In this document: in pieces, positions 3,059-57,676 of the stretch | Position numbering within the stretch: the stretch's first letter is position 1 | Layout: every line of letters begins with the position of its first letter | DNA from: a virus | Lineage: Duplodnaviria > Heunggongvirae > Uroviricota > Caudoviricetes | Length of the DNA stretch: 64,000 bases | Strand: one strand, 5' to 3' | IMG/VR virus record: IMGVR_UViG_3300012007_000011 | Coordinates: 155-64,154 of that record | Notes under the pieces: model-generated | What the model was told of the DNA's origin: nothing | Databases searched by the model: none | What the model saw: only the letters and a program-made list of their open reading frames with translations | Made by a program: the position numbers and the translations under genes

Positions 3059-3604
3059 ATGGCAAAGATACATTATATCATAGGTGATGCAACACTTCCT
3101 ATTGAGACAGAAGCAGAGAACAGACTAATAGTTCATTGTTGCAATACGCTTGGTGCTTGGGGTGCGGGTTTTGTTGTTCCTCTTGGCAGACGTTATCCAT
3201 TGGCAAAAGAAAAGTATAAGAAGTTCATTGAGGAAAATAAGGGTAAATCCATTTTGGGTGAAGTGAACGAAGTACCTGTTGGGGAACATCTGTATGTTGA
3301 AAACCTTATTGGTCAGAGTTTTCTTTATAAGAAGCCAAATGGTGAAATACCTTGTAATTATATTGCAATTGAAACGGGTTTTCTCAACATAATAAGAAAA
3401 TGGTTTTCATATAACTCAACGATACACAAGGATAAGCAAAACTTTTCAATTCATATGCCACGTATAGGTTGTGGTCTTGCTGGTGGTGATTGGAAAACAA
3501 TTGAAGAAATTATATATAGAACATTCATTGATATTGCCGATGTGGATGTATATGTGTATGATTTAAAGGAACAAAAAGATACCATTTATGATAACAGAGG
3601 ATAA
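3059..3604 (+). CDS. Macro-domain protein (ADP-ribose binding/hydrolase fold)
   Basis: IIGDATLPIETEAENRLIVHCCNTLGAWGAGFV matches the macro-domain core GDIT..DAIVNAAN..L..GGGV; the later GCGLAGG motif matches; 181 aa is the right size. Confidence 0.5.
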   Translation: MAKIHYIIGDATLPIETEAENRLIVHCCNTLGAWGAGFVVPLGRRYPLAKEKYKKFIEENKGKSILGEVNEVPVGEHLYVENLIGQSFLYKKPNGEIPCNYIAIETGFLNIIRKWFSYNSTIHKDKQNFSIHMPRIGCGLAGGDWKTIEEIIYRTFIDIADVDVYVYDLKEQKDTIYDNRG

Positions 3605-3857
3605 GATAAAGGATATAATTCTAACAATGATTGAGAACAACATGTTGGATAGTACACGTATCTTTGACAAAGAATATGTCTTGGAGAGAGTTAATTCATA
3701 TATTAAATCAGCCAACATGGTACGTTCAATGATGAACATGCCACTATTATAAAAAACACAAAAAATATGAAGTTTAAGAAGGCAATGTATATTTTCATAC
3801 TTTTTCTGTTATTGTAATATTTATAATAAAAAGAAATAATATTTTAACATTTAAAGT

Positions 3858-5000
3858 ATGGCAAAAAAATTAACAACTGAAGAGTTTGTACAAAGAGCGA
3901 GAAAGGTACATGGTAATAAATACGATTATTCGAAAGTGGAGTACTTAAATAATAGGACAAAGGTATGTATAATTTGTCCCGAACATGGAGAGTTTTGGCA
4001 AACACCTGATAGTCATATGTCAGGGAATAAATGCCCAAAGTGTTCTGGAACCAAGAAATTAACAACAGAAGAATTTATAGAACAAGCAAGAAAGATTCAT
4101 GGAAATAAATATGATTATTCAAAAGTTGAATATATTAACAATCATAGCAAAGTATGCATCATATGTCCAGAACATGGAGAGTTTTGGCAAACACCAATAA
4201 ACCATTGTTCAAAAAATAATCATAATGGATGTCCAATATGTGCAAAAACAATAATTGGTAATAAATTAAGAAAAAATAATTCATGTTTTATTGAAAAAGC
4301 AAGAGAAGTACATGGTGATAAATATGATTATTCAAAGGTCGAATATATAAATAACAGAACAAAGGTTTGTATAATTTGTCCTAAACATGGAGAGTTTTGG
4401 CAAACACCTGTCAATCATTTAAAAGGTCATAATTGCCCTAAATGTATTGGAAGGGGTGCATATAAATTAACAACAGAAGAGTTTATTGAAAAAGCAAAAC
4501 AAATACATGGTGATAAATATGACTACTCAAAGGTCAAATATGTAAATGCAAAAACCAAAGTTTGTATAATCTGTCCGGAACATGGAGAGTTTTGGCAAAC
4601 ACCAACCAGTCATATTGATGGAAAATGTGGATGTCCAGATTGTAATAAATTATTCAATGAAAAGAAAATAGGCGTTTTTCTAAATGAAAATGGAATTAGA
4701 TATATAAAACAAAAAACATTTAAATGGTTAGGTAAATTAAGGTTGGATTATTATTTAGTAGATTATAATATAGCAATCGAATATCAAGGCGAACAACATT
4801 TTCACTCAGTAAAATATTTTGGTGGTAATAAAAGATTTATTGATAGAATAGAGAGAGATAAAAGAAAAAAAGAATTGTGTGATAAAAATAATGTAAAAAT
4901 ATTATATGTATCGTTTTATAAAAAACCAACATATGATGTTATAAATAATTTTAAAGATTTGTTATATGAAATTCAAAGAAATATTTACAGAAAATTATAG
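3858..5000 (+). CDS. homing-endonuclease-like protein: 4 tandem zinc-ribbon modules plus a Vsr/PD-(D/E)XK-like nuclease C-terminus
   Basis: Four ~48-aa repeats of KYDYSKVEY.NN.TKVCIICPEHGEFWQTP..H..G..CP.C; the C-terminus LDYYLVDYNIAIEYQGEQHF resembles the Vsr/DUF559 nuclease core. Paralogous to 33001..33996. Confidence 0.6.
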   Translation: MAKKLTTEEFVQRARKVHGNKYDYSKVEYLNNRTKVCIICPEHGEFWQTPDSHMSGNKCPKCSGTKKLTTEEFIEQARKIHGNKYDYSKVEYINNHSKVCIICPEHGEFWQTPINHCSKNNHNGCPICAKTIIGNKLRKNNSCFIEKAREVHGDKYDYSKVEYINNRTKVCIICPKHGEFWQTPVNHLKGHNCPKCIGRGAYKLTTEEFIEKAKQIHGDKYDYSKVKYVNAKTKVCIICPEHGEFWQTPTSHIDGKCGCPDCNKLFNEKKIGVFLNENGIRYIKQKTFKWLGKLRLDYYLVDYNIAIEYQGEQHFHSVKYFGGNKRFIDRIERDKRKKELCDKNNVKILYVSFYKKPTYDVINNFKDLLYEIQRNIYRKL

Positions 5001-6375
5001 CGTTAATTGGGATTTCCTATTAACAATATCGCCATTTTCAAAAATGGTTAATTTAGAACAAAACAAGGAGTGGCATAAGGAAGATTGTTGGAAACATACA
5101 GTACTGGTTACACAAGAAATGGAAAAATTACTTAAAAGAAATCTTATTGAGAGAGGTTCTGAGAATTGGGTTATGTGTATGGCTGCTGCCTTGTGTCACG
5201 ATTTGGGAAAGGCTGATACAACCAAATGGTCTGAGGAAAAAAATGATTGGACAACAAAGAATCATGGTGTTGTCGGTGAGAGGATTACACGTCATCTTTT
5301 CTATGATGAAAACATTGTTTTAAGGGAAAAGGTATGTTATATGGTACGTCACCATATGACACTTCATCATGTATATGACAAACCAGAGGAAACAAATAAA
5401 AGGTTGATAAAATTATCACATGGTATTGTTGAAATGAGATTTATGATTTTATTGAACATTGCAGATTCGTTAGGCTCATACAATGATATAGAAACTGAAG
5501 ATAGTATTTATGACAAAGAGATGAAACTTATTAACGATGTAAGTTGTCTGCGTTGTTATCAGAAACCTTATTCTTTTATTGATAAGTCGCAACTGATTAG
5601 GAATTTCATTGACTATACTGGTGAAGTTATAAACGATAGAAATGACTTTTGTGTTTATATTCTTTGTGGTTTTCCTGGTTGTGGTAAAAGTACGTATTAT
5701 AATATGTTTCTTAATTCAAAACCTATTATATCAAGAGATATAATTCGTGGTGAGTTAGGTATTGACGGTGCAACCACAACCAACGACAAAAAAGTTGTTG
5801 GTACAAGGGAAGAGGAAGATAAAGTATCTGAAATTTTTAATAAGAAAATGATTGAATATTGTGAAAATAAGGAAAGTTTTGTTCTTGACAATACTAATCT
5901 TAAATATCAATATCGTAAAGATTATCTGTTAAAAATAATGAAATATAATCCTAAAGTGAAGATTATATATATTGAAGCACCGAATTACATTAAGGACTGT
6001 ATTGACAGAAGAAAGGGTGAGATACCGAAGAGAGTCTATGACAGAATGGAGAATAATTTTGATTTTCCACAATTGTATGAATGTGATGAGTTAACAATTG
6101 TTAAACAAGTGACAATAGAACAAGACAATGTATTTGTGTTTAAAGGCGATTTTACACCTGATTTGATATGTAATACTAATACCGTTAATGGGCGTGATTA
6201 TATATCAAAAGTAAAAGTACTAAATGATTTGTACATAACAAGAGGCGCAATGATATTGGATGGCTATGAATGTTATGACAGTTGTGTCAAATATATGGAT
6301 GAATTAATCAGCACATATAAGAACATGTTTGACTATACCGAACTGTTTGGTGAAATACCCTTAAAAAATGATTAA
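4966..6375 (+). CDS. HD-phosphohydrolase fused to a T4-Pnk-like polynucleotide 5'-kinase
   Basis: N-terminus has H..HD (HTVLV...ALCHDLGKADT) plus further His clusters. C-terminus has Walker A GFPGCGKST, IISRDIIR, and VLDNTNL matching T4 Pnk GCPGSGKST...ISDTNLNPERR. The true start may be the ATG at 5044. Confidence 0.6.
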   Translation: MKFKEIFTENYSVNWDFLLTISPFSKMVNLEQNKEWHKEDCWKHTVLVTQEMEKLLKRNLIERGSENWVMCMAAALCHDLGKADTTKWSEEKNDWTTKNHGVVGERITRHLFYDENIVLREKVCYMVRHHMTLHHVYDKPEETNKRLIKLSHGIVEMRFMILLNIADSLGSYNDIETEDSIYDKEMKLINDVSCLRCYQKPYSFIDKSQLIRNFIDYTGEVINDRNDFCVYILCGFPGCGKSTYYNMFLNSKPIISRDIIRGELGIDGATTTNDKKVVGTREEEDKVSEIFNKKMIEYCENKESFVLDNTNLKYQYRKDYLLKIMKYNPKVKIIYIEAPNYIKDCIDRRKGEIPKRVYDRMENNFDFPQLYECDELTIVKQVTIEQDNVFVFKGDFTPDLICNTNTVNGRDYISKVKVLNDLYITRGAMILDGYECYDSCVKYMDELISTYKNMFDYTELFGEIPLKND

Positions 6376-6678: not shown

Positions 6679-6936
6679 ATGAAAGAAGAAAAATATAAAA
6701 GAGCCGTTGAGATAAAAGATAAAATTTACTCATTACAGAAAAACCTTGAAGACTTAAAAGGCGGCCATTGGGACAAAACCCGTATCGAACTTAAAACAGG
6801 TTATTCCGACATGGGAATGGATTTTACGGTTTCAACAACATTTGACGAGGAAATTGGATATAAAATTCGTGATTTTATAAATGACACGATTAACAGTAAA
6901 ATTGCTGAATTGGAAAATGAGTTTGAAAATTTATAG
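6679..6936 (+). CDS. hypothetical protein (85 aa, coiled-coil)
   Basis: ORF. Confidence 0.4.
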   Translation: MKEEKYKRAVEIKDKIYSLQKNLEDLKGGHWDKTRIELKTGYSDMGMDFTVSTTFDEEIGYKIRDFINDTINSKIAELENEFENL

Positions 6937-6943
6937 GTATTTT

Positions 6944-7783
6944 ATGGAAAAGATAGAAAAATGGATACCACAAGTGGGTGATACTGTTAGGTTAAAAGGT
7001 ACTGAAAAGCCATTGTATCATTTATGTGGAATAACAAATTATGGTATGTTTTCATTTGTACAAGAAATGGAAAATGGTATTGCTGGTGGTGAGGTTTCTG
7101 AATATAGTTTACTTAGGAACTATGAACTTGTGGAACGCCCACAAAAATTAGAGGATTTCTTAAATGATATGATAACAAAGCCAATTTTGGAAAATATGAA
7201 TAAAACAAGATTTGAAAAATTTGGGAATGTGATGATAGATTTGGAAACACTATCAACGCACAACAATGCTGCCATTATAGAGATTGGTGCTGTTGAGTTT
7301 AATAAATATACGGGTGAGGTTGGCGAGAAGTTCAATGTAATTATTGACCCAAAGGATTGGTGTAAAAATGATAGACACGTTGACGGTGAAACAATTCAGT
7401 GGTGGTTTAACCAGACAAATGAAGCAAGAAAAAGATTTACACGCAAAAATAATGCGTATGTTACACTTAAGCAAGCGTTATGGCAATTGAGATATTTCAT
7501 TATGGATTGTGACACTGTTGATGATGATAAAGATGTTGTTGTATGGGGAAACGGTGCAACAATGGACATTAGCATATTAGAAAGTGCATTCAATTATTTC
7601 GACATAGAAGTACCTTGGAAATTTTGGGCAGTGAATGATGTAAGAACTATTGTTGACCTTAATCCGTCAATTAAGAAGAATTGTGAATTTGATTGTGGTG
7701 TTCGGCATAGTGCTATTGCTGATTGTCTCTATCAGATAAAATATACAACAGATACCATAAAATCATTAAAACTGAAATCATGA
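6944..7783 (+). CDS. DEDDh-family 3'-5' exonuclease (DnaQ-like)
   Basis: MIDLETLS (Exo I D.E), a conserved acidic motif, and HSAIADC (Exo III H...D). Start taken at the first ATG after the upstream stop. Confidence 0.65.
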   Translation: MEKIEKWIPQVGDTVRLKGTEKPLYHLCGITNYGMFSFVQEMENGIAGGEVSEYSLLRNYELVERPQKLEDFLNDMITKPILENMNKTRFEKFGNVMIDLETLSTHNNAAIIEIGAVEFNKYTGEVGEKFNVIIDPKDWCKNDRHVDGETIQWWFNQTNEARKRFTRKNNAYVTLKQALWQLRYFIMDCDTVDDDKDVVVWGNGATMDISILESAFNYFDIEVPWKFWAVNDVRTIVDLNPSIKKNCEFDCGVRHSAIADCLYQIKYTTDTIKSLKLKS

Positions 7784-8430
7784 CATTAAAAGACTTGAAG
7801 CCATTTATTGAGAAGTTGGGGGAATATGATAAGATTTGTATTTTCGATAAAAAAGAAGGCTTTCTTATTGATACAATATATATTAACCCTATTGACAATA
7901 AACTTTATGAATATATTAGTATTTTTTATCAACATAAAGTTGACTATGATAAAACTCCTTATTTTTTAAGGAATTATAAATATGAGGATGTTGAAATAAA
8001 GATATTATCAATGAAAGAATGGTGTGCATTTGTGCGGAAACGTAATTATGATTCATTTATGGAAGCATTAAATGATACAAAAGGAATATACTTTTGGAGA
8101 AATGGTATGAATAACGCTAAATTAATATACAATCAGATTATTACAGACCAAGGAAAATTTGTGTCATTTGGTTTGTTTAAAAACGATGAAGACGAAAAAT
8201 ATAAGGGTGTCCTTTTATCGGTATGCGCAAGTGACGAGGATTATTATTATGTGTATTTAAAGGAAGATAATACTATAGGTCTAATGACTTGTGTCGGTTG
8301 CTATAAAGTAACAGACGAGAATTACCAAACAAAGATATCTGATAAAGAAATAGCAAAAATGTTAAGTGATAAATTTGATTCTGACACAAGTTTGGACGCA
8401 TTGATATATCGTGGAAAATACTCCATTTAA
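7780..8430 (+). CDS. hypothetical protein (~216 aa)
   Basis: ORF with an ATGA overlap onto the exonuclease gene. Confidence 0.45.
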   Translation: MTLKDLKPFIEKLGEYDKICIFDKKEGFLIDTIYINPIDNKLYEYISIFYQHKVDYDKTPYFLRNYKYEDVEIKILSMKEWCAFVRKRNYDSFMEALNDTKGIYFWRNGMNNAKLIYNQIITDQGKFVSFGLFKNDEDEKYKGVLLSVCASDEDYYYVYLKEDNTIGLMTCVGCYKVTDENYQTKISDKEIAKMLSDKFDSDTSLDALIYRGKYSI

Positions 8431-8449
8431 GTATTTTTAACATAAAGTA

Positions 8450-8481
8450 TTTGGTTAATGCAAATAAAAATATTAGTTTTG
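8450..8481 (+). promoter_or_regulatory. Bacteroidetes sigma-A type promoter (TTTG-N20-TAGTTTTG)
   Basis: -33 TTTG at 8450..8453, -7 TAnnTTTG at 8474..8481; part of the conserved TTTTTAAC..ATTTGG module. Confidence 0.6.
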
Positions 8482-8518
8482 TAAATGTAAAATAACTTTG
8501 AATAAAATTTGAATAACT

Positions 8519-8770
8519 ATGGGAATTTTTAATAAAAAGAAAGTAGAAAATGTAATATCTGTTGAGGGTTATGCAGATGATTTATATGAAATAAGTAAGA
8601 ATGGCGAGATGAAACAGACAAGATTGTTCTATGTAATTCCTGAGAATCTTGAAGAGAATCAAGAAACAATGGACTTATGTATTACTTCGACTAATCCATA
8701 TCATTCGTTTCCGATTTTTGATAATCTATTGGGTAAGAAAATTAGAATTACAGTTGACATTATTGATTAA
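8519..8770 (+). CDS. hypothetical protein (83 aa)
   Basis: ORF after the promoter. Confidence 0.45.
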   Translation: MGIFNKKKVENVISVEGYADDLYEISKNGEMKQTRLFYVIPENLEENQETMDLCITSTNPYHSFPIFDNLLGKKIRITVDIID

Positions 8771-8800: not shown

Positions 8801-9658
8801 ATGAACAAGAAAAAATTGATAGACATTTTTAATATTGATAAACCCAACATTTGTTTTGTTGGTGATATACATGGTGAATTTAATTCACTGCAAGGTTTAA
8901 TGAAGAAAACAAATTTCAAAGATACTGCCTATATTGTGTGTGGTGATATTGGTTTTGGCTTTAATAAGAAAGAATATTATTCCAAAATCTTCAATAAACT
9001 GACAAAAACAGCCTCCAAACTTAATTGTGAATTTATTTTTATTAGGGGTAATCACGATGATAAGAAATATTTTGACAAACGTTTAATCAACAGAAAATGT
9101 TTTAAGACAATTCCTGATTATTCCGTCATACAGACACCTTTATATAATGTATTGTGTATTGGTGGTGCAATTTCAATTGACAGAACATATAGAAAATTGG
9201 TTTTAAAGGAAAATGCTTTGAAATATTCTATTTATCATGGTTGCACTCCCAATGAAGCTGAGAAGTTATGTCAGCAAGTATATTGGGATGATGAACCTTG
9301 TTACTATGATGAAGAGAAATTAACGCAATTAAAACTAAATAACATAAACATTGATATTGTTTGTACCCATACATGTCCGTCATTCACAAAACCCTTTGGA
9401 AAAGAAAATATTGGCTATTGGTTATCCAAAGATGAAAGCCTTGAACGTGATATTGACAATGAGCGTGAGGTAATGGATAAGGTTTATAATAAACTTAAAA
9501 CAGACGGTCACACCCTTGATATGTGGTTCTATGGACATTTTCATTATCATAACGTGCAATTTGTTGATAAGACTAAATTTGTAATGCTTGATATGTATCG
9601 TAACGGAAACTATGACATTTATGATGTTTACAATACAAAAGAAACTATTTATAATTGA
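8801..9658 (+). CDS. calcineurin-like metallophosphoesterase
   Basis: GDIHG, GDIGFG and GNHDD motifs in canonical order. Confidence 0.6.
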   Translation: MNKKKLIDIFNIDKPNICFVGDIHGEFNSLQGLMKKTNFKDTAYIVCGDIGFGFNKKEYYSKIFNKLTKTASKLNCEFIFIRGNHDDKKYFDKRLINRKCFKTIPDYSVIQTPLYNVLCIGGAISIDRTYRKLVLKENALKYSIYHGCTPNEAEKLCQQVYWDDEPCYYDEEKLTQLKLNNINIDIVCTHTCPSFTKPFGKENIGYWLSKDESLERDIDNEREVMDKVYNKLKTDGHTLDMWFYGHFHYHNVQFVDKTKFVMLDMYRNGNYDIYDVYNTKETIYN

Positions 9659-11795: not shown

Positions 11796-11894
11796 CAAAC
11801 AGAGGAAAGATTTGGGGCATATTGCAACCTCTTTAAAAATGCTAAAAAGTCCCATTTAATAAATTATTTGTTTAACTTTTTAAATATTGATTAA

Positions 11895-16543: not shown

Positions 16544-18055
16544 ATGAGAACAGTTTATTTAAAGAATTTTAGAAAGGGATTTGCTACAAACAGTAGTTCA
16601 ACTCATTCTGTCATATACCGTAATAAAGAGGATTTATTCAAAGATTTGGATATTTTTGAATTAAACTATTATGATAGATTTGACAATACGATTGCGGCTT
16701 CAAAAGAAGCAAAAATCAAGTATGTTGCAGCCAATATTATGTGGCATGACAAATTATATGAAATAATGTCGTTGTATTATCCACAGATGAATGAATACAA
16801 AGAACTTATCAAAGAAACCAAAAATAAAGAAACATTATATGGTGATGATGAAAAGTTTGGAATGTATGCAAGGGGTAGACTGTATTTCGGTAATAGTAAA
16901 TACTTGGAGGCAAGTATTGATTATCTTCGTAATGTTATAGATAATGACGATATAATCATAGTTGGTGGTTCTGATGAAACTGATTTTGTTTGGGAAACCA
17001 TTGAAGGACATAAAACATTACCGCAACCAGATGAAATAAATGACTACAATGATAACTGTAATATTGTTAAAAATGGAAATTATTGGGTTGGTTTTGGCTA
17101 TAATGGAAAAGTGAGATTTTCTAATAGTAACGATAAATGTATTCCGAGTTATCCGGAACTGATTGACTTGAAAATTACAAATCAGTGTGACCACGGATGT
17201 AATTTTTGCTACATGGATTCGAATATGCAAGGAAAACATGCAGATATTAATTTTCTTAAAAAAATCATTAGTAGATTGTCTTCAAATGACAGTAATACCT
17301 ATGACACACGTGTTGAATTTTCAATCGGTGGCGGTAATGTACTTTTGTATCCACATCTTGAAGAGTTGTTTAGTTTCATGAAGGAGAAAAGACATATCAT
17401 TAATACAACAATTAATGTTAAGGATTGTCAGAAAATCTTAAATGACTCTAACTTACTTAAAGTTTTTAAAAAATATGTCAATGGAATTGGTGTATCAGTA
17501 AATTCTGATGAAAACATTAACGATGTTAAAGAATTAAAGGAAAAATTGAATGACACAAGCAATTATCCTTATTACACTTATAAAGAGATTGTAATACATA
17601 TGATACCAGAACTTCTTGGCAGGGAAAAAACCAAAAATCTTTTGAAAAAACTTTATGATAATAATTTATATGACATACTTTTCCTTGGTTATAAGACAAA
17701 TGGACGTGGTGTGACACAAAAGCACAATAGGCTAACAAATGAAGATTTAAGTTATATTCTTGAAGATGCTTATAGTATAAATGTTGACACAACATTTGCG
17801 AATACATACAAAGATTGGCTGCAAAACAATTTTGATATTAAATATAGTATCACGTTTGATGAAGGCGAATATAGTATGTATATTGATGGCGTTACAGAAA
17901 ATGCTTACAAATCTTCTTATCAACTTGACAAACCATATAATCTGACTTGTACAACTATGAATTGGCAAGCAAAAAATAAAGAATGGTTCGAAGTAATAGA
18001 TGCATTCAAAAACATAAGAAAAGACAATGGTTTTGAAAATATAGAAAAAGAATAA
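16544..18055 (+). CDS. radical-SAM protein (503 aa) with a ~200-aa N-terminal extension
   Basis: CDHGCNFCY is a CX3CX2C radical-SAM cluster motif; Gly-rich IGGGNVLLYP SAM-binding motif. Confidence 0.6.
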   Translation: MRTVYLKNFRKGFATNSSSTHSVIYRNKEDLFKDLDIFELNYYDRFDNTIAASKEAKIKYVAANIMWHDKLYEIMSLYYPQMNEYKELIKETKNKETLYGDDEKFGMYARGRLYFGNSKYLEASIDYLRNVIDNDDIIIVGGSDETDFVWETIEGHKTLPQPDEINDYNDNCNIVKNGNYWVGFGYNGKVRFSNSNDKCIPSYPELIDLKITNQCDHGCNFCYMDSNMQGKHADINFLKKIISRLSSNDSNTYDTRVEFSIGGGNVLLYPHLEELFSFMKEKRHIINTTINVKDCQKILNDSNLLKVFKKYVNGIGVSVNSDENINDVKELKEKLNDTSNYPYYTYKEIVIHMIPELLGREKTKNLLKKLYDNNLYDILFLGYKTNGRGVTQKHNRLTNEDLSYILEDAYSINVDTTFANTYKDWLQNNFDIKYSITFDEGEYSMYIDGVTENAYKSSYQLDKPYNLTCTTMNWQAKNKEWFEVIDAFKNIRKDNGFENIEKE

Positions 18056-24049: not shown

Positions 24050-24361
24050 ATGATGAAAGAAAAACAGATTTCAGAATCAATACTTAAACTTAAGTTATTA
24101 AAAGAAAGGTTTAATGAGAGACAACGTATTCAAGAAAAAAGTAGAAATGATTTAAAAAGGTATGAAAATCTTGATAAACAATATCCAGAACATAAATATG
24201 TAGAAAATTATATAAGATACCTTGAACAAATTGTTTTTGAAAATAAGGTACTTCTTAATGCTTTGCAAAAACAGTGCCTTGATATTAAGAAAAAAATCAA
24301 AAAATTGAATAAGGAACAAAATATTAGAAACAATAAAAAGTTAGAAAAACATGACAAATAA
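24050..24361 (+). CDS. coiled-coil small protein (~103 aa)
   Basis: First ATG downstream of the promoter; the ORF-track start at 24026 is a TTG inside the -7 box. Confidence 0.45.
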   Translation: MMKEKQISESILKLKLLKERFNERQRIQEKSRNDLKRYENLDKQYPEHKYVENYIRYLEQIVFENKVLLNALQKQCLDIKKKIKKLNKEQNIRNNKKLEKHDK

Positions 24362-36488: not shown

Positions 36489-37361
36489 ATGTTAAACTTA
36501 AATAGAATAAAAGAAAGCAATGAGAATAAACATATTCCAAAGGAAATTGAGGAAACACGTAATCTGATTACTGAATCCTTTAAAGATTTGGAATTTGTTG
36601 AAGACGTTCATAAATACTTTTTGCCAAAAGGAAAAAAGAAAATTGAACTACCAAGTGTAAGTTCGATTATTAAACGTTGGGAACAAGAAGTTGATTGGGA
36701 TGAAAAGGCTGAACTTAAAGCATTAAGTTTGGGTATTCCAACAGAAGAATTGAAAAGGCAATGGCATGAAAACAATATAATCAGTACATCTTGTGGTTCA
36801 AAAACGCACTTTTTCGGTGAAAACGCAATGAATATGTTCATTGGTAGGGAGGATTTGGCGAAACAGAATATGCCTTTCCAATATACCGAAGATGGTTATC
36901 TTATACCATATTGTCCGAAAGAATGGGCGATTACGCAATATTATGAGGATATAATGAACAATGAAAACGTCTATCCTGTAATGCCGGAGGCAAAAATATA
37001 CACTAATTATAACAAGACGTTTAAAATGAAACAACCATATGCAGGTACTTTTGATATACTACTTGCATATAGATATAAAGGGGAAATAGTATACAGCATT
37101 CATGATTTCAAAACAAATAAGGATTTATATAAAGCATTTAGCAGAAGTAATGGCGTAATGATGCTTCCACCATTTGATGAAATGGGATTTTATGAAGAAC
37201 CATATTACCATTATGTAATTCAATTAAATTGTTATCAGTTAGGGTTAATGCAATTGGGTTTGAAAATTGTTGACAGAAATCTTATTTGGCTTAAAGAAGA
37301 TGGTACTTATGAAAAAATTAAAGTACCAGATATTACACAAGTTTTATTACCATTATTATAA
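36489..37361 (+). CDS. PD-(D/E)XK nuclease of the RecB/Cas4/YqaJ/lambda-exonuclease type
   Basis: Ordered motifs GTFDILLAY (motif II D), IHDFKTNK (D.K) and YHYVIQLNCYQ (QxxxY). Confidence 0.5.
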   Translation: MLNLNRIKESNENKHIPKEIEETRNLITESFKDLEFVEDVHKYFLPKGKKKIELPSVSSIIKRWEQEVDWDEKAELKALSLGIPTEELKRQWHENNIISTSCGSKTHFFGENAMNMFIGREDLAKQNMPFQYTEDGYLIPYCPKEWAITQYYEDIMNNENVYPVMPEAKIYTNYNKTFKMKQPYAGTFDILLAYRYKGEIVYSIHDFKTNKDLYKAFSRSNGVMMLPPFDEMGFYEEPYYHYVIQLNCYQLGLMQLGLKIVDRNLIWLKEDGTYEKIKVPDITQVLLPLL

Positions 37362-37373: not shown

Positions 37374-38183
37374 ATGGAAACATTAAAGGAAAAATGTCAA
37401 GAGTTAAGAGCAAAATATGATGTCAGTATGCCAAAGAAAACATACGCAATGGCAATGATTGATGGTAAGAACTTTTCACGTCTTATTAAAAACAAATATG
37501 AAAAACCATTTGATGATAAATTCATTAATATGATGAATGAAGTGGCAATTTATGTTTGCAAGAACGTACAAGGTTGCAAATTCGCATATACACAATCAGA
37601 TGAAATTACATTTGTTCTAACTGATTTTGAAAACGAAGAAACAAGTGCATATTTTGATTATCGTTTATGCAAAATGTTATCAATTATACCGTCACTTGCA
37701 ACGGCAAAGTTTAACCAATTGGTAACATTGAATCTGCTTGATACACCTTGTTCAACAGAAGACATGAAACAAATCATCAAACATATGTCGCTTGCACAAT
37801 TTGACTGCAAAGTGTGGAATACAGATAACTTTAATGATGTGTTTGCATATTTCCTTTGGAGGCAGATAGATTGTGTGAGAAATTCAAAACAACAAGCAGC
37901 ACAAACATATCTTTCGCATAAAGAACTTATGGGAAAACATACAGATGAACAAATTAGACTGTTGTTCGAAAAGAAAGGAATTGATTGGAACGAATATTCT
38001 GATGATAAAAAATACGGACGTTTCATATATAAGGAACAAATCGAAAAGCCATTACCAAATCATGAAGAGAATACATGTCTGAGAAATGTGTGGCTTGCGC
38101 ACGATGCGTTTGAATTATACGAAAGTGGTGGAAAACAAAGACTTTTGGAACTTGGTGTCATTCCGATTAAGATTATTGAATAA
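37374..38183 (+). CDS. Thg1-like protein (tRNA-His guanylyltransferase family 3'-5' nucleotidyltransferase)
   Basis: AMAMIDGKNFSRL matches Thg1 VVRIDGKKFHEFS. YEKPFDDKF matches FAKPNDENA. KFAYTQSDEITFVL matches ILAFGESDEYSFIL. The catalytic D (in IDG) and SDE acidic residues are conserved. Confidence 0.6.
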   Translation: METLKEKCQELRAKYDVSMPKKTYAMAMIDGKNFSRLIKNKYEKPFDDKFINMMNEVAIYVCKNVQGCKFAYTQSDEITFVLTDFENEETSAYFDYRLCKMLSIIPSLATAKFNQLVTLNLLDTPCSTEDMKQIIKHMSLAQFDCKVWNTDNFNDVFAYFLWRQIDCVRNSKQQAAQTYLSHKELMGKHTDEQIRLLFEKKGIDWNEYSDDKKYGRFIYKEQIEKPLPNHEENTCLRNVWLAHDAFELYESGGKQRLLELGVIPIKIIE

Positions 38184-42052: not shown

Positions 42053-42730
42053 ATGGAAAAGGAAATTAAAAAACCGTCAGAAATATTCGGTGTTAAAGTG
42101 TGGTTTACGTCAGATAGCCACATACAACATAGGAATATTTTGAAACATTGTCCCAAACGTGCTGAGATTGGTGGTTTTGATATAGATGATGTTGAAGCAC
42201 ATGACAAATGGCTGATTGATATTTGGAACAAAACAATCGGTAAAAGGGATATTGTATATATTCTTGGTGATTTTTCTTTTGCCTCTCCTGAAATTATAAA
42301 GAAACAAATTCTTCCAAAACTTAATGGCCAGAAATATCTTATATTGGGAAACCATGACAAATCCTCTGAGCATCTTCAAGGCTATTTTACACAGATAACA
42401 CAAATGAAAGAAGTGGTTTTCAAAAAGAAAAACTTTCCGTTTATTGAAGAGGATAGTTTTAGGGTATTTATGTGCCATTATCCGATGGTAACTTGGCCCG
42501 GAAAACATCATGGTGTTGTAAATGCGCACGGGCACTGTCACTCACATTTAGATGACTTTAACGAACAAAGTAGTGACTTACGTGTGGATGTTGGCATAGA
42601 TGGTAAACTTGCTGATTTTAAACCGATTTCACTTGAAAAGTTATATTATCACTTTAAGAATAAAACAGGTGGTAAGACGTTTGAGGAATATGTAACATTA
42701 CAGAAAGAATTAGGTACAACGCAATTTTAA
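42053..42730 (+). CDS. calcineurin-like metallophosphoesterase
   Basis: SDSH, LGDFSF, LGNHD and HGHCH motifs in order. Confidence 0.55.
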   Translation: MEKEIKKPSEIFGVKVWFTSDSHIQHRNILKHCPKRAEIGGFDIDDVEAHDKWLIDIWNKTIGKRDIVYILGDFSFASPEIIKKQILPKLNGQKYLILGNHDKSSEHLQGYFTQITQMKEVVFKKKNFPFIEEDSFRVFMCHYPMVTWPGKHHGVVNAHGHCHSHLDDFNEQSSDLRVDVGIDGKLADFKPISLEKLYYHFKNKTGGKTFEEYVTLQKELGTTQF

Positions 42731-46369: not shown

Positions 46370-46401
46370 TTTGGTTGTTTGAAAAATAAACACTATATTT
46401 G
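46370..46401 (+). promoter_or_regulatory. Bacteroidetes sigma-A type promoter (TTTG-N20-TATATTTG) driving the non-coding RNA
   Basis: Canonical module; the predicted start is ~46407..46412, exactly where the tRNA-like acceptor strand begins; no ORF follows. Confidence 0.6.
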
Positions 46402-46411
46402 CAAATGAAAA

Positions 46412-46616
46412 CGGTGGGATAGCTCAATTTGGAGCAGAGCGCAGTCGAGGCGGTGTCCATGACGATGGGATAACACTGCTGAACATGACTGAGGGCTTTA
46501 GAAAGTCACTAAACTGTTATGTACTATAATGACACTTGGATGTAGTCTAGAATGCATTGGGAAGTAGTTACGGGAGAAACGGTGAAGTATTGGGGGTTCG
46601 AATCCTTCCCCACTGA
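46412..46616 (+). ncRNA. tRNA-like structured RNA (~205 nt): acceptor stem, D-arm and T-arm enclosing a ~130-nt insert
   Basis: 5' CGGUGGG (46412..46418) pairs with 3' CCCACUG (46609..46615): 7 bp including one G-U, then discriminator A. D-arm AGCUC-AAUUUGGAGCA-GAGC resembles the tRNA consensus uAGCUCAgUUGGuAGAGC. T-arm GGGGG-UUCGAAU-CCUUC has a canonical T-loop. No anticodon arm can be folded; the surrounding region is ~45-50% GC against ~30% background. Confidence 0.5.
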
Positions 46617-46804: not shown

Positions 46805-47359
46805 ATGAAAGGTAGCAGTAACACGAAAAAATTTAAGAAATTTCAGATAAGATGGGCAGAGAGGTTGGGTTATGAAAATAACCCATATCTTATTAGATGG
46901 ACTTTCATCTTTTTTGGATATTCAATGAGAATACACCATTGGATTAAATCTGATGACAATAGATTTTTTCATGACCATTCTGCTGACCTTCTCAGCATTG
47001 TACTAAAGGGAAGATATTGGAATGTAAAACCAATTGTCAATGACAAGAATCCAAATGATATGGTAAATGTAATCCAATATGAAAAGGATTTGGGTGAGGT
47101 TTTGGGAAGGAACGAAAAATGGTGTTATGTTGAAGGAATTTTCAATTCTTGGCGCAATTTCTTTCATATGAAAAATTCAATTTGGTTTTCAAAGGCAGAA
47201 GATAGACATTATCTCAGCATTCCAAAAGGTGGTGCTTGGACTTTAATGTTTGAAGGAAAACCAAGGCATAAATGGGGATTTTATGTGAACGGTCACAAAT
47301 GGAGACCATTGCGTTATTTTCATAAATATGGTATAAGACAAGATGCAGAATATCAATAA
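46805..47359 (+). CDS. hypothetical protein (184 aa), upstream partner of the radical-SAM gene
   Basis: ORF overlapping the radical-SAM gene by 17 nt. Confidence 0.45.
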   Translation: MKGSSNTKKFKKFQIRWAERLGYENNPYLIRWTFIFFGYSMRIHHWIKSDDNRFFHDHSADLLSIVLKGRYWNVKPIVNDKNPNDMVNVIQYEKDLGEVLGRNEKWCYVEGIFNSWRNFFHMKNSIWFSKAEDRHYLSIPKGGAWTLMFEGKPRHKWGFYVNGHKWRPLRYFHKYGIRQDAEYQ

Positions 47360-55883: not shown

Positions 55884-55941
55884 AATTCAAAATATTTTAA
55901 CATTTTATTATCCTTTTACAAATATAATTCAAATTTTTCAC

Positions 55942-56652
55942 TTAACGAAATAATTTTGGGGTTTTTATTGGTTTTCCACCATTTTTAATTGAATCATACC
56001 ACTGACCATTGGTATCCAAACCAAGTATCTCTGTGCCGATTAACTTATCAGCAACTATCTTCACTATATCTTCACCACATCTTCCTTCATAATCCTTTTT
56101 CAAATAGTTTTCTCTTTCTTCTTGGTATTTCTTGCTCTGTATGAAACCACAACAAGACAACTCCGGACAAAATCCCCTATAAACACAATCGGGAACCATC
56201 TTGTCAGCCATTACCGGGTCAATCTTCCTAATTGCTTCCCTTACTTGTTTCCATGCTTCCCTTGTTTCCGTGCTTGCACAACCACACAAACGCTTTCTTG
56301 ATATGTTTATCAGTGACTGAGCGTTGCAACTCATCATCATATCGTTAAGGCTTCCTTGCGGCATTTCATCACGTGGAACAGGGTTATCACGTCTGTCTTG
56401 TCTTTGGGAATGTACAAACTTCTCACAACCTATGTAGTGTCGTACAAGATGTGTAGTAACCCAAGTCTTGATATTATTCCATTTGAAATCATATTCAACA
56501 AGTCTGATTGGAGAATGTTCTGCCAATAATATAGAAGCCCACCATTTCTTAGTAGGCTCTTTATTTATTTCTTCTTTGCCAATTGTTTCCCTTGCAGCGT
56601 TCAATGCCCTTTTCCATGTTGTAGCCATTGTACATTTTACTATCTCACTCAT
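55942..56652 (-). CDS. thyX: flavin-dependent thymidylate synthase ThyX-like
   Basis: LVRHYIGCEKFVHSQRQDR matches the ThyX signature RHR-x7-8-SQR; 236 aa is the right size. Confidence 0.5.
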   Translation of the reverse strand: MSEIVKCTMATTWKRALNAARETIGKEEINKEPTKKWWASILLAEHSPIRLVEYDFKWNNIKTWVTTHLVRHYIGCEKFVHSQRQDRRDNPVPRDEMPQGSLNDMMMSCNAQSLINISRKRLCGCASTETREAWKQVREAIRKIDPVMADKMVPDCVYRGFCPELSCCGFIQSKKYQEERENYLKKDYEGRCGEDIVKIVADKLIGTEILGLDTNGQWYDSIKNGGKPIKTPKLFR

Positions 56653-57676
56653 TGTCTGCTTCCATTAAATCCGTTATTATTACTGTTTTGTTTTCTCTGA
56701 AATATCTGAATCCATTTAGGAAATCCTCAATATTCATAATTTTCTTACTGGCAATCTGTATTCTCTTTATATAAACACATTTTCCACAATCCGCCAAATT
56801 CAATCTCACAAACGTTTTGCCATCACTTTCACAATACAAAGTCTGCACGTTCATTGGTGTTTCTTCTTTATTAACAACTTCAACATCATAAATCTTGGCT
56901 TCAAATTTCTTCTCATTATTGTCTTCGTCAATTACATAGATAATGCAAGGTAAACCAACATTGTCAACAGAATTGACCAACCTTTGCATTCTTTCACAAT
57001 CAAAATGAGACCAATGACAACGGAAATAATCTGAATTTATCTTATGTGCGTCAATAACATATTCATGTTCATGATTCCAACTTGGTTGTACAATCAAACA
57101 ATCCTTCCAATCTTCATGTTGAAGGACATCTTCAATGACATGTCCCGTAAAGTCCACACAAGCATTCGATAACTTCTTGTATAAGGTGGTATATTTCTCT
57201 CCTGCTGCGATTTTAACTCTTGTGTTGGCAATTATATCACCGTGGTCAATTTTGTCGTTTAGAACGAATGCTGTAAGTCCCGTCTCCTTATAACCAAGTT
57301 TGATTGCCCAATTGATTGGTGCTGCACCACGAAGAAATGGTAAAAGAGAAGCATGAACATTAAAAGCACACTTCTTCGCAAGTTTGATTATTTCCTTTGG
57401 CAGTTTCTTAAATGAAATAACACAGAAGATATCGGCATCCATTCTTTTCAACCAATCAATAAAGAAAGCATCTTCTTCAAACTTTTCTCCCTTTATCATA
57501 TAATAAGGAACTCTTAGTTCCTCTGCAACTTGTTTTATTGTCTTCTTGTGAAACCTGACTTTATCATTAGCACAAGTAACAAGACCAACAATATTGCTGC
57601 CATTATTTACCAATGTTTCAAACGTGTCAATTGCAAAATCACCATTTGCAAAAAATACTACTCTATCCTTTGTCAT
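56645..57676 (-). CDS. formyltransferase, methionyl-tRNA formyltransferase (Fmt)-like with a C-terminal domain
   Basis: N-terminal RVVFFANGDFAIDTFETLV...IVGLVTCAND matches the Fmt IVFMGTPDFA...VVT.PD motif; NVHASLLPFLRGAAPINWAI is the formyltransferase catalytic motif; the 343 aa include an Fmt-like C-terminal domain. Overlaps thyX by 8 nt. Confidence 0.6.
   Translation of the reverse strand: MTKDRVVFFANGDFAIDTFETLVNNGSNIVGLVTCANDKVRFHKKTIKQVAEELRVPYYMIKGEKFEEDAFFIDWLKRMDADIFCVISFKKLPKEIIKLAKKCAFNVHASLLPFLRGAAPINWAIKLGYKETGLTAFVLNDKIDHGDIIANTRVKIAAGEKYTTLYKKLSNACVDFTGHVIEDVLQHEDWKDCLIVQPSWNHEHEYVIDAHKINSDYFRCHWSHFDCERMQRLVNSVDNVGLPCIIYVIDEDNNEKKFEAKIYDVEVVNKEETPMNVQTLYCESDGKTFVRLNLADCGKCVYIKRIQIASKKIMNIEDFLNGFRYFRENKTVIITDLMEADNE

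What the first reader, a model, noticed from the sequence alone, without database searches (positions are those of the whole stretch)
3059..57676. Synthesis: a dispersed tRNA repair and maintenance toolkit
Taken together, the window encodes:
- HD-Pnk (end healing).
- A tRNA-binding-domain ligase plus a second ligase (end sealing).
- A Thg1-like enzyme (5'-end rebuilding).
- An Fmt-like enzyme (initiator-tRNA formylation).
- Two metallophosphoesterases and a Macro domain (removal of phospho- or ADP-ribosyl marks).
- A promoter-driven tRNA-like RNA.

T4 counters the PrrC anticodon nuclease with Pnk plus Rnl1. The combination here is much broader and points to a multi-layer counter-defence against host tRNA-targeting immunity or toxins. 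As a combination it does not correspond to a described module.
Basis: inference. Interest (0 to 1): 0.8.

Follow-up and report, generated by a model that had tools for sequence, protein, structure and literature searches.

The report
Jumbo-phage RNA/tRNA repair gene set
A large gut phage related to the Prevotella "Lak" megaphages carries a real set of RNA end-healing, sealing and end-rebuilding enzymes plus a tRNA-shaped RNA; the same genes sit side by side in related phages, but this kind of phage RNA-repair kit has already been described in outline.

Summary
All listed items are present. Eight gene assignments hold: HD-Pnk, two ATP-dependent RNA ligases, a Thg1-like enzyme, an Fmt-like formyltransferase, two metallophosphoesterases and a Macro domain. 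One label is wrong: the ligase's N-terminal domain is the Rnl5-family OB module, not a tRNA-binding domain.

The tRNA-like RNA lies at 46412-46616. Standard tRNA finders miss it, but 12 homologues show strong covariation.

The genes are linked in relatives. Some related phages carry a co-oriented array: HD-Pnk, radical SAM, PP2C, MPE, small ligase, Rnl5. Others carry RlaP, CCA-adding enzyme, YqeY, Fmt-like, MPE, HD-Pnk, Rv2179c-like exoribonuclease and MPE within 17 kb. In one, Thg1 overlaps the same radical SAM gene. Only Macro lacks conserved linkage.

The claim that this matches no described module is not supported. Aravind-group surveys (2010, 2021, 2022) and the Lak phage paper describe such kits.

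RNA, probably tRNA, repair or maintenance is well supported. Counter-defence against host nucleases is inferred. Maintenance of the phage's own tRNAs is a live rival.

Apparently undescribed: the radical SAM partner, and the tRNA-shaped RNA paired with a cupin gene.

The parts
3059..3604 (+). Macro domain protein of the ALC1/TARG1/Poa1/DarG-like clade. It processes ADP-ribose derivatives. Its membership of the kit is weak.
   Evidence: PDB sequence hits 2AFC/2FG1 at 5e-29, 5E3B, Poa1p 6LFU and DarG 5M3I. NCBIfam DarG 37 bits. phrog_335. A promoter-like box at 2785 lies ahead of its operon. No homologue was found in any related repair locus.
4966..6375 (+). HD-Pnk: an N-terminal HD phosphoesterase plus a C-terminal P-loop 5'-OH polynucleotide kinase. 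This is the end-healing enzyme.
   Evidence: Pfam HD and AAA_33. phrog_505 and phrog_6931. Motifs H..HD..D, GFPGCGKST and SRD are visible in the translation. Homologues at 40-42% identity head the compact arrays in L027-L031, L050 and L054.
6881..7783 (+). Rv2179c-like 3'-5' exoribonuclease, a candidate 3'-end trimmer.
   Evidence: Pfam PF16473 at 164.6 bits. Its homologue lies directly after HD-Pnk in L050/L051.
7723..8770 (+). Two conserved genes of unknown function (7723-8430 and 8519-8770) that travel with MPE1.
   Evidence: Homologues lie just upstream of MPE1 in L027-L031 and L050. No family hits.
8801..9658 (+). Metallophosphoesterase 1, a candidate 2',3'-cyclic or 3'-phosphate esterase.
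   Evidence: Pfam Metallophos 52.6 bits. Homologues at 59% identity lie inside the HD-Pnk-to-ligase arrays. 32% identity to a Lak-A1 gene.
16544..18055 (+). Radical SAM enzyme with an N-terminal extension. It is a conserved partner of HD-Pnk and of Thg1 in relatives. Its substrate is unknown.
24351..26126 (+). Rnl5-type ATP-dependent RNA ligase: an N-terminal OB module, an insert of about 140 aa, and a C-terminal nucleotidyltransferase domain.
   Evidence: PF09414 and PF21189. Weak match to the NgrRnl N-domain. phrog_968. 45-46% identity over full length next to the small ligase in L025 and L027-L032. 33-37% identity to Lak genes.
26951..27631 (+). Small (226 aa) RNA ligase made of a nucleotidyltransferase domain only, with motifs KLDG, FEWYGE, EGVV and KVKFK.
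   Evidence: PF09414 31 bits. 60-70% identical in Lak and other huge phages, and found in only 20 of 50,697 phage records. In Lak-A1 it lies 1.6 kb from a tRNA array.
36489..37361 (+). Exonuclease (phrog_298) immediately upstream of the Thg1-like gene.
   Evidence: PHROG hit. Its homologue lies 1 kb from Thg1 in L017.
37374..38183 (+). Thg1-like protein of the bacterial type: a 3'-5' nucleotidyl transferase that rebuilds 5' ends.
   Evidence: Pfam Thg1 89 bits. BtTLP 4KGK at 5e-28. The IDG and SDE carboxylates align, and the HINNLYN motif is absent. 47% identity to Lak genes.
42053..42730 (+). Metallophosphoesterase 2 (phrog_547).
   Evidence: Pfam Metallophos 30.3 bits, phrog_547 165 bits. 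Its homologue lies between the small ligase and Rnl5 in L025/L032, and between Fmt-like and HD-Pnk in L050 at 60% identity.
46373..46616 (+). Promoter-like TTTG...TATATTTG box (46373-46405) followed by a tRNA-shaped RNA of about 205 nt (46412-46616). The RNA has a 7-bp acceptor stem, a D arm, a 5-bp anticodon-like stem capped by a 40-nt insert, a region of about 100 nt with three hairpins, and a T arm.
   Evidence: Homologues in IMG/VR and metagenomes. Covariation. The covariance model R1 scores 255.7 bits on the window copy, which is one of its own training sequences, and finds no second copy in the window or loci searched. The RNA lies inside tRNA arrays in 10 of 11 relatives.
46805..47359 (+). 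Highly conserved 184-aa cupin-fold protein that always follows the tRNA-shaped RNA.
55942..57676 (-). Fmt-like formyltransferase (56645-57676) whose stop overlaps the start of a ThyX-like gene (55942-56652).
   Evidence: Pfam and NCBIfam. The Fmt/Thy1-like pair is conserved in L048 and L052. In L050/L051 Fmt-like lies between RlaP, CCA enzyme and YqeY on one side and MPE2, HD-Pnk, exoRNase and MPE1 on the other.

Best explanation
The window comes from a large Bacteroidota-infecting phage distantly related to the Prevotella Lak megaphages. It encodes a multi-enzyme system for restoring broken or incomplete RNA ends, most plausibly on tRNAs.

Shown:
- The enzyme families are present and their catalytic motifs are intact.
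- In related phages the same genes form compact, co-oriented, operon-like arrays.
- Those arrays also hold a CCA-adding enzyme, an RlaP nucleotidyltransferase, a YqeY protein, an Rv2179c-like 3'-5' exoribonuclease and a radical SAM enzyme.

Inferred mechanism, from what the families are known to do:
1. A host or competitor ribonuclease leaves 2',3'-cyclic-phosphate and 5'-OH ends.
2. The HD domain of HD-Pnk, and possibly the two metallophosphoesterases, remove the 3' or cyclic phosphate. The kinase domain phosphorylates the 5'-OH.
3. Damaged 3' ends are trimmed by the exoribonuclease and rebuilt by the CCA or RlaP enzymes. Those two are encoded just outside the window in relatives.
4. Damaged 5' ends are rebuilt in a template-dependent way by the Thg1-like enzyme.
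5. Nicks are sealed by the Rnl5-type ligase (nicks in duplex regions) and by the small ligase.

Membership varies in strength:
- The Fmt-like enzyme belongs to the same tRNA-centred neighbourhood in relatives and probably acts on Met-tRNA, but its substrate is not established.
- Macro is only loosely attached.
- The tRNA-shaped RNA with its cupin partner is a separate conserved pair that sits in phage tRNA arrays.
For: Family assignments.

Conserved linkage in relatives:
- L027-L031 and L054 carry HD-Pnk, rSAM, PP2C-like, MPE1, small Rnl and Rnl5 within about 9 kb, all co-oriented. A Pol-beta nucleotidyltransferase lies 2 kb downstream in L027, and a NADAR gene 3 kb upstream in L054.
- L025 and L032 carry small Rnl, MPE2 and Rnl5.
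- L050 and L051 carry RlaP, CCA enzyme, YqeY, Fmt-like, MPE2, HD-Pnk, exoRNase and MPE1 within 17 kb.
- L055 has Thg1 overlapping the start of the same rSAM family.
- Thg1 lies 3 kb from Rnl5 in Lak A and B and about 10 kb from it in contig 3300028048_000091.

Conservation against Lak-A1: only 12 of 89 window proteins have a homologue in the 542-kb genome. Five of the eight listed toolkit proteins are among them (hypergeometric P 8.6e-4). They lie within 407-484 kb, next to a 19-tRNA array.

Biochemical precedents: HD-Pnk and ligase cluster in Runella (PMC6097658). Rnl5 nick sealing (PMC7261155). The Thg1/Pnk/Macro/ligase association and the jumbo-phage repair survey.
Against: - No substrate, host nuclease or expression data are available.
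- In this window the genes are spread over 54 kb in several transcription units. Many have their own promoter-like box.
- HD-Pnk, Fmt-like and Macro have no Lak homologue.
- Thg1 sits among replication and recombination genes: an exonuclease here, SSB plus exonuclease in L017, and a DnaB-like helicase in Lak.
- Metallophosphoesterases and PP2C could instead be protein or cyclic-nucleotide phosphatases.
- Rnl5 enzymes also seal RNA-DNA hybrid nicks, and Runella HD-Pnk acts on DNA ends too.
- Enzymes are in general better conserved than ORFans, which inflates the Lak enrichment.
Confidence: 0.6

Rival explanations
1. The set serves housekeeping rather than counter-defence. It matures and maintains the phage's own large tRNA pool. 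Tasks would include 3' trimming and CCA addition, 5'-end completion by the Thg1-like enzyme, formylation of a phage initiator tRNA, and processing of unusual insertion-bearing tRNA-like transcripts. This would let the phage run translation independently of the host.
For: - Relatives carry dense tRNA arrays plus a tmRNA. L033 has 10 tRNAs and one tmRNA in 15 kb.
- Lak-A1 has 32 tRNAs, and its small ligase lies 1.6 kb from a 19-tRNA array.
- A CCA-adding enzyme, YqeY and Fmt-like are linked in L048, L050 and L052.
- The tRNA-shaped RNA sits inside tRNA arrays.
- Lak tRNAs contain conserved 'enigmatic' introns (bioRxiv 10.1101/356790).
Against: - End healing (kinase plus 2',3'-phosphoesterase) and ligation are not needed for ordinary bacterial tRNA maturation. 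They point to endonucleolytic breaks.
- The window itself carries no canonical tRNA.
- The two explanations are not exclusive.
Confidence: 0.3
2. There is no single system. The genes are independent auxiliary functions that co-reside in the early or middle region.
- Macro removes ADP-ribose marks or signals, such as those of DarT or Thoeris-type defences.
- The metallophosphoesterases and PP2C act on proteins or cyclic nucleotides.
- Fmt-like works with the ThyX-like enzyme in folate or nucleotide chemistry.
- Rnl5 and Thg1-like act on RNA primers or RNA-DNA hybrids during replication.
For: - The genes are dispersed over 54 kb, and many have their own promoter-like box.
- Macro relatives occur in 713 phage records, so the domain is widespread, and it resembles DarG/TARG1-type domains.
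- The Fmt-like stop overlaps the ThyX-like start, here and in L048 and L052.
- Thg1 neighbours are replication and recombination genes.
- MPE1 has a weak NinI-like protein phosphatase hit.
Against: - Tight co-oriented arrays recur in several diverged relatives at 40-70% amino-acid identity. They have different internal orders but the same membership.
- The rSAM bridges HD-Pnk and Thg1.
- MPE2 lies between the two ligases in L025 and L032.
Confidence: 0.12

Closest known systems
Phage T4 Pnkp + Rnl1 tRNA repair, which counters the PrrC anticodon nuclease
   Same: It uses the same heal-and-seal logic. A 5'-kinase plus a 3'-phosphoesterase prepare the ends for an ATP-dependent RNA ligase encoded by the phage.
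   Different: - No T4-type Pnkp (kinase plus HAD phosphatase) is present. Healing is by an HD-Pnk fusion plus calcineurin-type esterases.
- No Rnl1 is present. Sealing is by an Rnl5-type ligase and a 226-aa domain-only ligase.
- Extra nucleotide-restoring enzymes are present.
- The target nuclease is unknown.
Runella slithyformis HD-Pnk / ligase / Tpt1 / MTase-HIT cluster (Munir & Shuman; PMC6097658)
   Same: The HD-Pnk domain architecture is the same. HD-Pnk is genetically linked to an ATP-dependent ligase, within 5.5 kb in related phages.
   Different: - No Tpt1 or MTase-HIT was seen.
- The ligases here match the PF09414 RNA-ligase family. Their relation to the Runella ligase was not compared.
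- The partners here are a radical SAM enzyme, PP2C, metallophosphoesterases and an exoribonuclease.
- The context is a phage, not a bacterium.
Jumbo-phage RNA repair complements surveyed by Iyer, Anantharaman, Krishnan, Burroughs & Aravind 2021 (PMC7824862), and the Thg1-Pnk-Macro-ligase neighbourhoods of Anantharaman et al. 2010 (PMC2904730)
   Same: The repertoire is the same in kind: ATP-dependent ligases, Pnk, HD and calcineurin phosphatases, Macro or NADAR, RlaP, CCA-adding enzyme and Thg1. All are interpreted as a counter to tRNA-cleaving immunity. Lak-B8 was part of that survey.
   Different: In the passages I read, those papers do not mention four things found here:
- the radical SAM partner;
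- the Fmt-like member;
- the Rv2179c-like exoribonuclease next to HD-Pnk;
- the tRNA-shaped RNA with its cupin gene.
Rnl5 family (Naegleria NgrRnl, Deinococcus DraRnl)
   Same: An N-terminal OB module followed by a C-terminal nucleotidyltransferase domain. The family is already known to occur in phages.
   Different: - An insert of about 140 aa, predicted to be helical, lies between the OB and nucleotidyltransferase domains.
- Motif I reads KLHG instead of KxDG.
- Sequence similarity to NgrRnl is very weak (E 0.45, N-domain only).
tmRNA and bacterial YrlA Y RNAs, which are RNAs with a tRNA-like domain
   Same: An acceptor stem, a D arm and a T arm with GGTTCGAATCC frame a large non-tRNA insertion.
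   Different: - No tmRNA or YrlA model matches.
- No tag reading frame is conserved.
- The order of arms is that of a normal tRNA, not the permuted order of YrlA.
- The partner is a cupin protein, not SmpB or Ro.

Membership tests
HD-Pnk (Runella type) | N-terminal HD metal-dependent phosphoesterase domain | tested here: met
   Pfam HD 39.4 bits over residues 44-149. The H...HD...H...D pattern is visible in the translation.
HD-Pnk (Runella type) | C-terminal P-loop 5'-OH polynucleotide kinase domain | tested here: met
   AAA_33 46 bits over residues 230-368. phrog_505 polynucleotide kinase. Weak hits to CthPnkp kinase 4GP7 and TIGR04075. The GFPGCGKST and SRD motifs are present.
HD-Pnk (Runella type) | Genetic linkage to an ATP-dependent polynucleotide ligase | tested here: inconclusive
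   In the window the nearest ligase is 18 kb away. In relatives L027-L031 and L054 the two ligases lie 5.5-9 kb downstream in the same co-oriented array.
HD-Pnk (Runella type) | 2',3'-phosphoesterase and 5'-kinase activities | not testable with these tools
   This needs a biochemical assay.
Rnl5 RNA ligases | N-terminal OB module fused to a C-terminal nucleotidyltransferase domain | tested here: met
   PF21189 scores 24-26 bits in the window protein, just under its gathering score of 27, and 28.4 bits in the L027 orthologue. PF09414 scores 33.7 bits. The N-terminus aligns to NgrRnl residues 9-55.
Rnl5 RNA ligases | Motif I lysine nucleophile (KxDG) | tested here: met
   KLHGTS is present in the nucleotidyltransferase domain. 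The Asp is replaced by His here and in Lak orthologues. The D172A mutant of NgrRnl remains active (PMC7261155).
tRNA-binding domain (Pfam tRNA_bind, PF01588), as claimed for ligase 1 | A match to the tRNA_bind profile | tested here: not met
   No tRNA_bind hit for residues 1-130 or 1-216, even at E<=10. Only the PHA02142 OB fold matched.
Thg1 / Thg1-like proteins | Thg1 catalytic palm domain with the metal-binding carboxylates | tested here: met
   Pfam Thg1 89.4 bits. The alignment to 4KGK keeps the IDG and QSDE motifs.
Thg1 / Thg1-like proteins | HINNLYN motif of true tRNA-His guanylyltransferases | tested here: not met
   The aligned segment reads DCVRNSKQQAA against DCHINNLYNTT in Candida Thg1. 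It resembles BtTLP. The protein is therefore filed as a bacterial-type Thg1-like protein, not Thg1 proper.
Methionyl-tRNA formyltransferase (Fmt, TIGR00460) | Formyl_trans_N plus the C-terminal OB-like domain | tested here: met
   PF00551 84.5 bits and PF02911 22.8 bits.
Methionyl-tRNA formyltransferase (Fmt, TIGR00460) | A score above the curated equivalog cut-off | tested here: not met
   129.3 bits against a cut-off of 201.5. ArnA scores 101 bits. It is therefore called 'Fmt-like', with substrate unproven.
Macro domain (ALC1/TARG1/Poa1/DarG-like) | Sequence similarity to solved macro domains across the whole domain | tested here: met
   2AFC at 5e-29 over residues 3-170. Also 5E3B, 6LFU, 5M3I and TARG1. 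Pfam itself gave no hit.
T4 Pnkp-Rnl1 repair system | Pnkp (kinase plus HAD phosphatase) and an Rnl1-family ligase | tested here: not met
   No HAD or Pnkp architecture and no Rnl1 hit among the window proteins scanned. The system works like T4's but is not a member.
Canonical tRNA (Rfam RF00005 / ARAGORN) | Passes tRNA model thresholds and has a 7-nt anticodon loop | tested here: not met
   13.7 bits against a gathering score of 29. ARAGORN finds none unless introns of 100-126 nt are allowed, and then the anticodons disagree among homologues. The post-splicing anticodon stem is no better than shuffles, 465 of 500.
Canonical tRNA (Rfam RF00005 / ARAGORN) | Acceptor, D and T arms | tested here: met
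   The acceptor stem is 100% paired with two compensatory pairs. The D and T arms are invariant and pair fully. GGTTCGAATCC is present.

The most novel reading that the evidence does not exclude
The heal-and-seal enzymes (HD-Pnk, metallophosphoesterases, two ligases) together with the radical SAM enzyme and the cupin are not only emergency repair. They would form a phage-encoded, protein-catalysed processing pathway for insertion-bearing tRNA-shaped transcripts. Examples are the 205-nt RNA at 46412-46616 and the 'enigmatic' intron-containing tRNAs of Lak phages. This would be a bacterial-virus counterpart of eukaryal and archaeal tRNA splicing, yielding a functional tRNA or a regulatory RNA.
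Probability: 0.08. Interest if true: 0.85.

Novelty: new variant of a known kind. Interest (0 to 1): 0.5.

Why it matters
tRNA cleavage is a common end-point of bacterial anti-phage immunity, as with PrrC, RloC, PARIS, retron-associated and HEPN nucleases. Only the T4 Pnkp/Rnl1 answer is understood biochemically.

This lineage of gut megaphages offers a different and much richer enzyme set. In relatives it forms a compact array suitable for cloning and testing.

- It links HD-Pnk, so far studied only in a bacterium, to phage biology.
- It nominates a radical SAM enzyme as a new RNA-repair partner.
- It adds an Fmt-like enzyme and a tRNA-shaped RNA with a cupin partner to the list of translation-related functions these phages carry.

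The overall concept, however, is already in the comparative-genomics literature.

Tried and rejected
1. Near-identical phage in GenBank: none found.
2. Canonical tRNA or tmRNA in the window: none. Relaxed ARAGORN gives mostly coding-region false positives.
3. Candidate tRNA-like sites at 40100-40430 and 1440-2150: nothing there.
4. Homologue of the tRNA-shaped RNA in Lak-A1 or other loci, by blastn, nhmmer and the covariance model R1: none convincing.
5. Intron-containing tRNA-Pro model from ARAGORN: rejected as the main reading. Anticodons differ among homologues, and the predicted post-splicing anticodon stem shows no covariation. The alternative helix CAGUC/GACUG has four compensatory pairs.
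6. RNAalifold's helix at columns 74-80/107-113: replaced, because the divergent member L034 breaks three of its seven pairs.
7. Close relatives of HD-Pnk, Rnl5 and Fmt-like in IMG/VR using single-protein patterns: none found. Their relatives were reached instead through the small ligase, Thg1 and protein searches.
8. tRNA_bind domain in ligase 1: not found.
9. PDB sequence search for the small ligase: no meaningful hit.
10. Whether Lak tRNA-His encodes G-1, to test a Thg1 maturation role: the acceptor stem could not be read unambiguously, so this was abandoned.
11. Fold searches of the cupin and the radical SAM enzyme returned only generic superfamily matches.

Full report
**What the window is.** The 64-kb window has 31% G+C. 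Its genes lie on the + strand up to about 53 kb and on the - strand after that. No GenBank phage is close at the DNA level. The Thg1-like protein is encoded identically on a human gut metagenome contig. By protein similarity the nearest sequenced relatives are the Prevotella Lak megaphages: small ligase 61%, Thg1-like 47%, Rnl5 33-37%. Closer uncultured relatives occur on contigs of 100-397 kb. A Bacteroidota-type promoter box, TAnnTTTG extended to TAnnTTTGCAAA, is enriched: 46 sites against 25 expected, with 0 of 100 shuffles reaching that number. It sits in front of many genes. All three stop codons are used as gene ends. I saw no sign of the TAG recoding that Lak phages use in part of their genomes.

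**Checking the listed items.** Pfam, PHROGs, NCBIfam and comparison with solved structures support eight gene assignments.

- **HD-Pnk, 4966-6375.** It has an HD domain and an AAA_33 polynucleotide-kinase-type P-loop domain, with the expected motifs.
- **Two metallophosphoesterases, 8801-9658 and 42053-42730.**
- **Ligase 1, 24351-26126.** It combines the PF09414 nucleotidyltransferase domain with an N-terminal PHA02142-type OB fold. This is the architecture of the Rnl5 family, typified by Naegleria and Deinococcus ligases.
  - In NgrRnl that OB module promotes ligase adenylylation. It is not a tRNA-binding domain.
- No tRNA_bind match appears even at permissive thresholds.
- **Ligase 2, 26951-27631.** It is a 226-aa nucleotidyltransferase-only protein with motifs I, III, IV and V. 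It is very well conserved in huge phages and rare elsewhere, occurring in 20 of 50,697 phage records.
- **Thg1-like protein, 37374-38183.** It is the bacterial Thg1-like type.
  - Its best solved relative is the Bacillus thuringiensis protein 4KGK.
  - The catalytic carboxylates are kept.
  - The HINNLYN motif of true tRNA-His guanylyltransferases is absent.
- **Fmt-like protein, 56645-57676, - strand.** It has both formyltransferase domains and resembles Fmt most, but scores below the curated Fmt cut-off.
- **Macro, 3059-3604.** Pfam does not detect it, but it is clearly a macro domain of the ALC1/TARG1/Poa1/DarG-like group.

**The tRNA-like RNA.** Default tRNA and Rfam searches find nothing. 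The 469-nt gap at 46336-46804 holds a promoter-like box followed by a tRNA-shaped RNA at 46412-46616, and it contains a perfect GGTTCGAATCC.

- Eleven homologues were recovered from IMG/VR and metagenomes.
- On the 12-sequence alignment the proposed structure has these elements:
  - a 7-bp acceptor stem;
  - a D arm;
  - a 5-bp stem in the anticodon-stem position, capped by a 40-nt hairpin-bearing insert;
  - a region of about 100 nt with three hairpins;
  - a T arm.
- This structure is 98% paired, and 10 pairs show compensatory changes. No shuffle out of 500 does as well, and slid controls pair only about 45%.
- With long introns allowed, ARAGORN calls every member a tRNA with the same ends. 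The anticodons disagree, however (Pro GGG/AGG, Leu GAG, Tyr AUA).
- The predicted post-splicing anticodon stem is no better than shuffles. I therefore call it a tRNA-shaped RNA, not a decoder tRNA.
- In all 11 relatives it is directly followed by a 184-aa gene, 46805-47359 in the window. In 10 of 11 it lies inside a tRNA array.
- That protein belongs to a very conserved family, 70-94% identical across the top 120 clusters. Its model has a cupin fold with invariant His and Asp residues.

- **Lak-A1.** A tblastn of 89 window proteins against the complete 542-kb genome finds only 12 homologues.
  - Five of the eight listed toolkit proteins are among them (P 8.6e-4).
  - All five lie in a 77-kb arc next to a 19-tRNA array.
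  - Thg1-like and Rnl5 are 3 kb apart there.
- **Closer relatives reached through the small ligase.** They show a compact co-oriented array: HD-Pnk, radical SAM (homologue of 16544-18055), PP2C-like, homologues of 7723 and 8519, MPE1, two small genes, small ligase, Rnl5.
  - All of it fits within about 9 kb.
  - A Pol-beta nucleotidyltransferase lies just downstream (L027-L031).
  - L054 has the same array, with a NADAR gene upstream.
- **L025 and L032.** The MPE2 homologue lies between the two ligases.
- **L050 and L051.** One 17-kb co-oriented stretch holds RlaP, a CCA-adding enzyme, YqeY, the Fmt-like gene, MPE2, HD-Pnk, the Rv2179c-like exoribonuclease and MPE1.
- **L055.** The Thg1-like gene overlaps the start of the same radical SAM family.
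- **L048.** This close relative (about 90% identity) shows that a CCA-adding enzyme, NT5C and YqeY lie just beyond the right end of the window.

The scattered layout in the window looks like a compact module spread apart by insertions. These include DUF723-repeat mobile-type genes, DNA methyltransferases and a riboswitch-controlled MetK. Macro is the one member with no conserved linkage. In the window it lies 1.4 kb upstream of HD-Pnk.

**Mechanism.** What follows is inference from what the families are known to do.

- The HD domain and the metallophosphoesterases remove 2',3'-cyclic or 3'-phosphates.
- The kinase domain phosphorylates 5'-OH ends.
- The exoribonuclease, with the CCA and RlaP enzymes, trims and rebuilds 3' ends.
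- The Thg1-like enzyme rebuilds 5' ends against the 3' strand.
- The Rnl5 ligase seals nicks in duplex regions, and the small ligase seals another class of break.

The substrate is most plausibly tRNA. The neighbours are tRNA enzymes, and in relatives tRNA arrays lie nearby. Nothing shows which RNAs are repaired or which nuclease causes the damage.

A role in maintaining the phage's own tRNA pool is equally compatible with much of the evidence, and may coexist with counter-defence.

The radical SAM enzyme is a consistent partner of unknown role. Its fold is closest to BlsE, SPASM/twitch maturases, viperin and MoaA. Several of these act on nucleosides or nucleotides.

**Comparison with what is known.**

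- The heal-and-seal logic is that of T4 Pnkp/Rnl1, but none of the T4 protein families is present.
- HD-Pnk matches the Runella enzyme in architecture, and in relatives also in its ligase linkage.
- Anantharaman et al. 2010 described the association of Thg1 with a polynucleotide kinase, Macro and RNA ligase. They suggested RNA repair, including in phage 201phi2-1.
- Iyer et al. 2021 surveyed jumbo phages, Lak-B8 included. They described RNA repair sets made of ligases, Pnk, HD and calcineurin phosphatases, Macro, RlaP, CCA enzyme and Thg1. The 2022 NAD/ADP-ribose survey adds the Macro and NADAR roles.
- The Lak phage paper noted the tRNA-His 5' G-adding enzyme (Thg1-type), CCA addition and a tRNA-repair ligase. 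It also reported conserved introns in phage tRNAs.

The statement that the combination is undescribed is therefore not correct.

From the papers I could read, four things appear not to be described:

- the radical SAM partner;
- the Fmt-like and Rv2179c-like members of the neighbourhood;
- the compact HD-Pnk-to-Rnl5 array of this clade;
- the tRNA-shaped RNA with its cupin gene.

**Verdict.** The toolkit is real and genetically coherent, tRNA repair or maintenance is the best reading, and counter-defence remains an inference. The claim of novelty as a module is overstated. I rate it a new variant of a known kind, of moderate interest.

Noticed in passing
window 11788-13079 (+): A SAM-II (long-loop) riboswitch aptamer lies at 11796-11855 (46.4 bits, E 3.6e-8). 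It is directly preceded by a promoter-like TATATTTGCAAA box and followed by a full-length SAM synthetase gene (MetK, TIGR01034 363 bits). The phage appears to carry a SAM synthetase under SAM feedback control.
   Followed up: partly
window 46805-47359 (+); L033-L047: A 184-aa cupin-fold protein always follows the tRNA-shaped RNA. Its family has 617 clusters at 90% identity, the top 120 of which are 70-94% identical, and it has no Pfam family. H44, H45, D57, H58 and H135 are invariant. The RNA and protein form a fixed pair inside phage tRNA arrays. Their function is unknown.
   Followed up: yes
window 16544-18055 (+); L027-L031, L054, L055: A radical SAM enzyme with a 200-aa N-terminal extension lies directly after HD-Pnk in several relatives. 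It overlaps the Thg1-like stop codon in another. Its fold is nearest to BlsE, SuiB, SkfB, viperin and MoaA. It is a candidate new component of RNA repair.
   Followed up: partly
window 3858-5000 (+) and 33001-34002 (-): Two paralogous genes are built of DUF723-type repeats (CPxHGxFWQ...). They lie at variable positions in relatives, and one overlaps the HD-Pnk start. They look like mobile, homing-endonuclease-like genes that may have spread the repair genes apart.
   Followed up: partly
window, 46 sites (e.g. 2785, 8474, 11788, 24021, 26424, 30453, 40368, 46394, 48531): The extended Bacteroidota-type -7 promoter box TAnnTTTGCAAA is enriched, 46 sites against 25 expected. It precedes many operons, including those of Macro, MPE1, MetK, both ligases and the tRNA-shaped RNA.
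   Followed up: partly
window 55942-56652 (-): A ThyX-like gene scores only 30.8 bits against the 87.9-bit cut-off. Its start always overlaps the stop of the Fmt-like gene in the close relatives L048 and L052. It may be a folate-dependent enzyme with a different substrate.
   Followed up: partly
L048 1-2203 (just beyond window position 64000): In a syntenic relative at about 90% identity, a CCA-adding enzyme (PolyA_pol + HD), an NT5C nucleotidase and a YqeY-domain protein lie immediately past the window's right end.
   Followed up: partly
window 10196-11017, 20184-20984, 29165-29908 (+), 54828-55610 (-), 14798-15754 (+): There are four DNA methyltransferase-like genes. There is also an ORF whose homologues carry an RE_MjaI restriction-endonuclease domain in L050 and L052.
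   Followed up: no
window 31044-32966 (+): A 640-aa SPFH/Band-7 protein with a long, charged, repetitive C-terminal half. A Band-7 gene also lies near RlaP and the CCA enzyme in L050.
   Followed up: no
window 13173-15754 (+): A run of overlapping ORFs (13173-13511, 13457-14119, 14014-14901, 14798-15754). The second is 55% identical to a Lak-A1 gene. This may reflect frameshifts or wrongly chosen starts.
   Followed up: no
L033 5980-6347, L043 8195-8546: Relatives encode a tmRNA with tag GENVNSPAYEYAIAA, together with dense tRNA arrays. L033 also has a CTA-anticodon suppressor-type tRNA.
   Followed up: no
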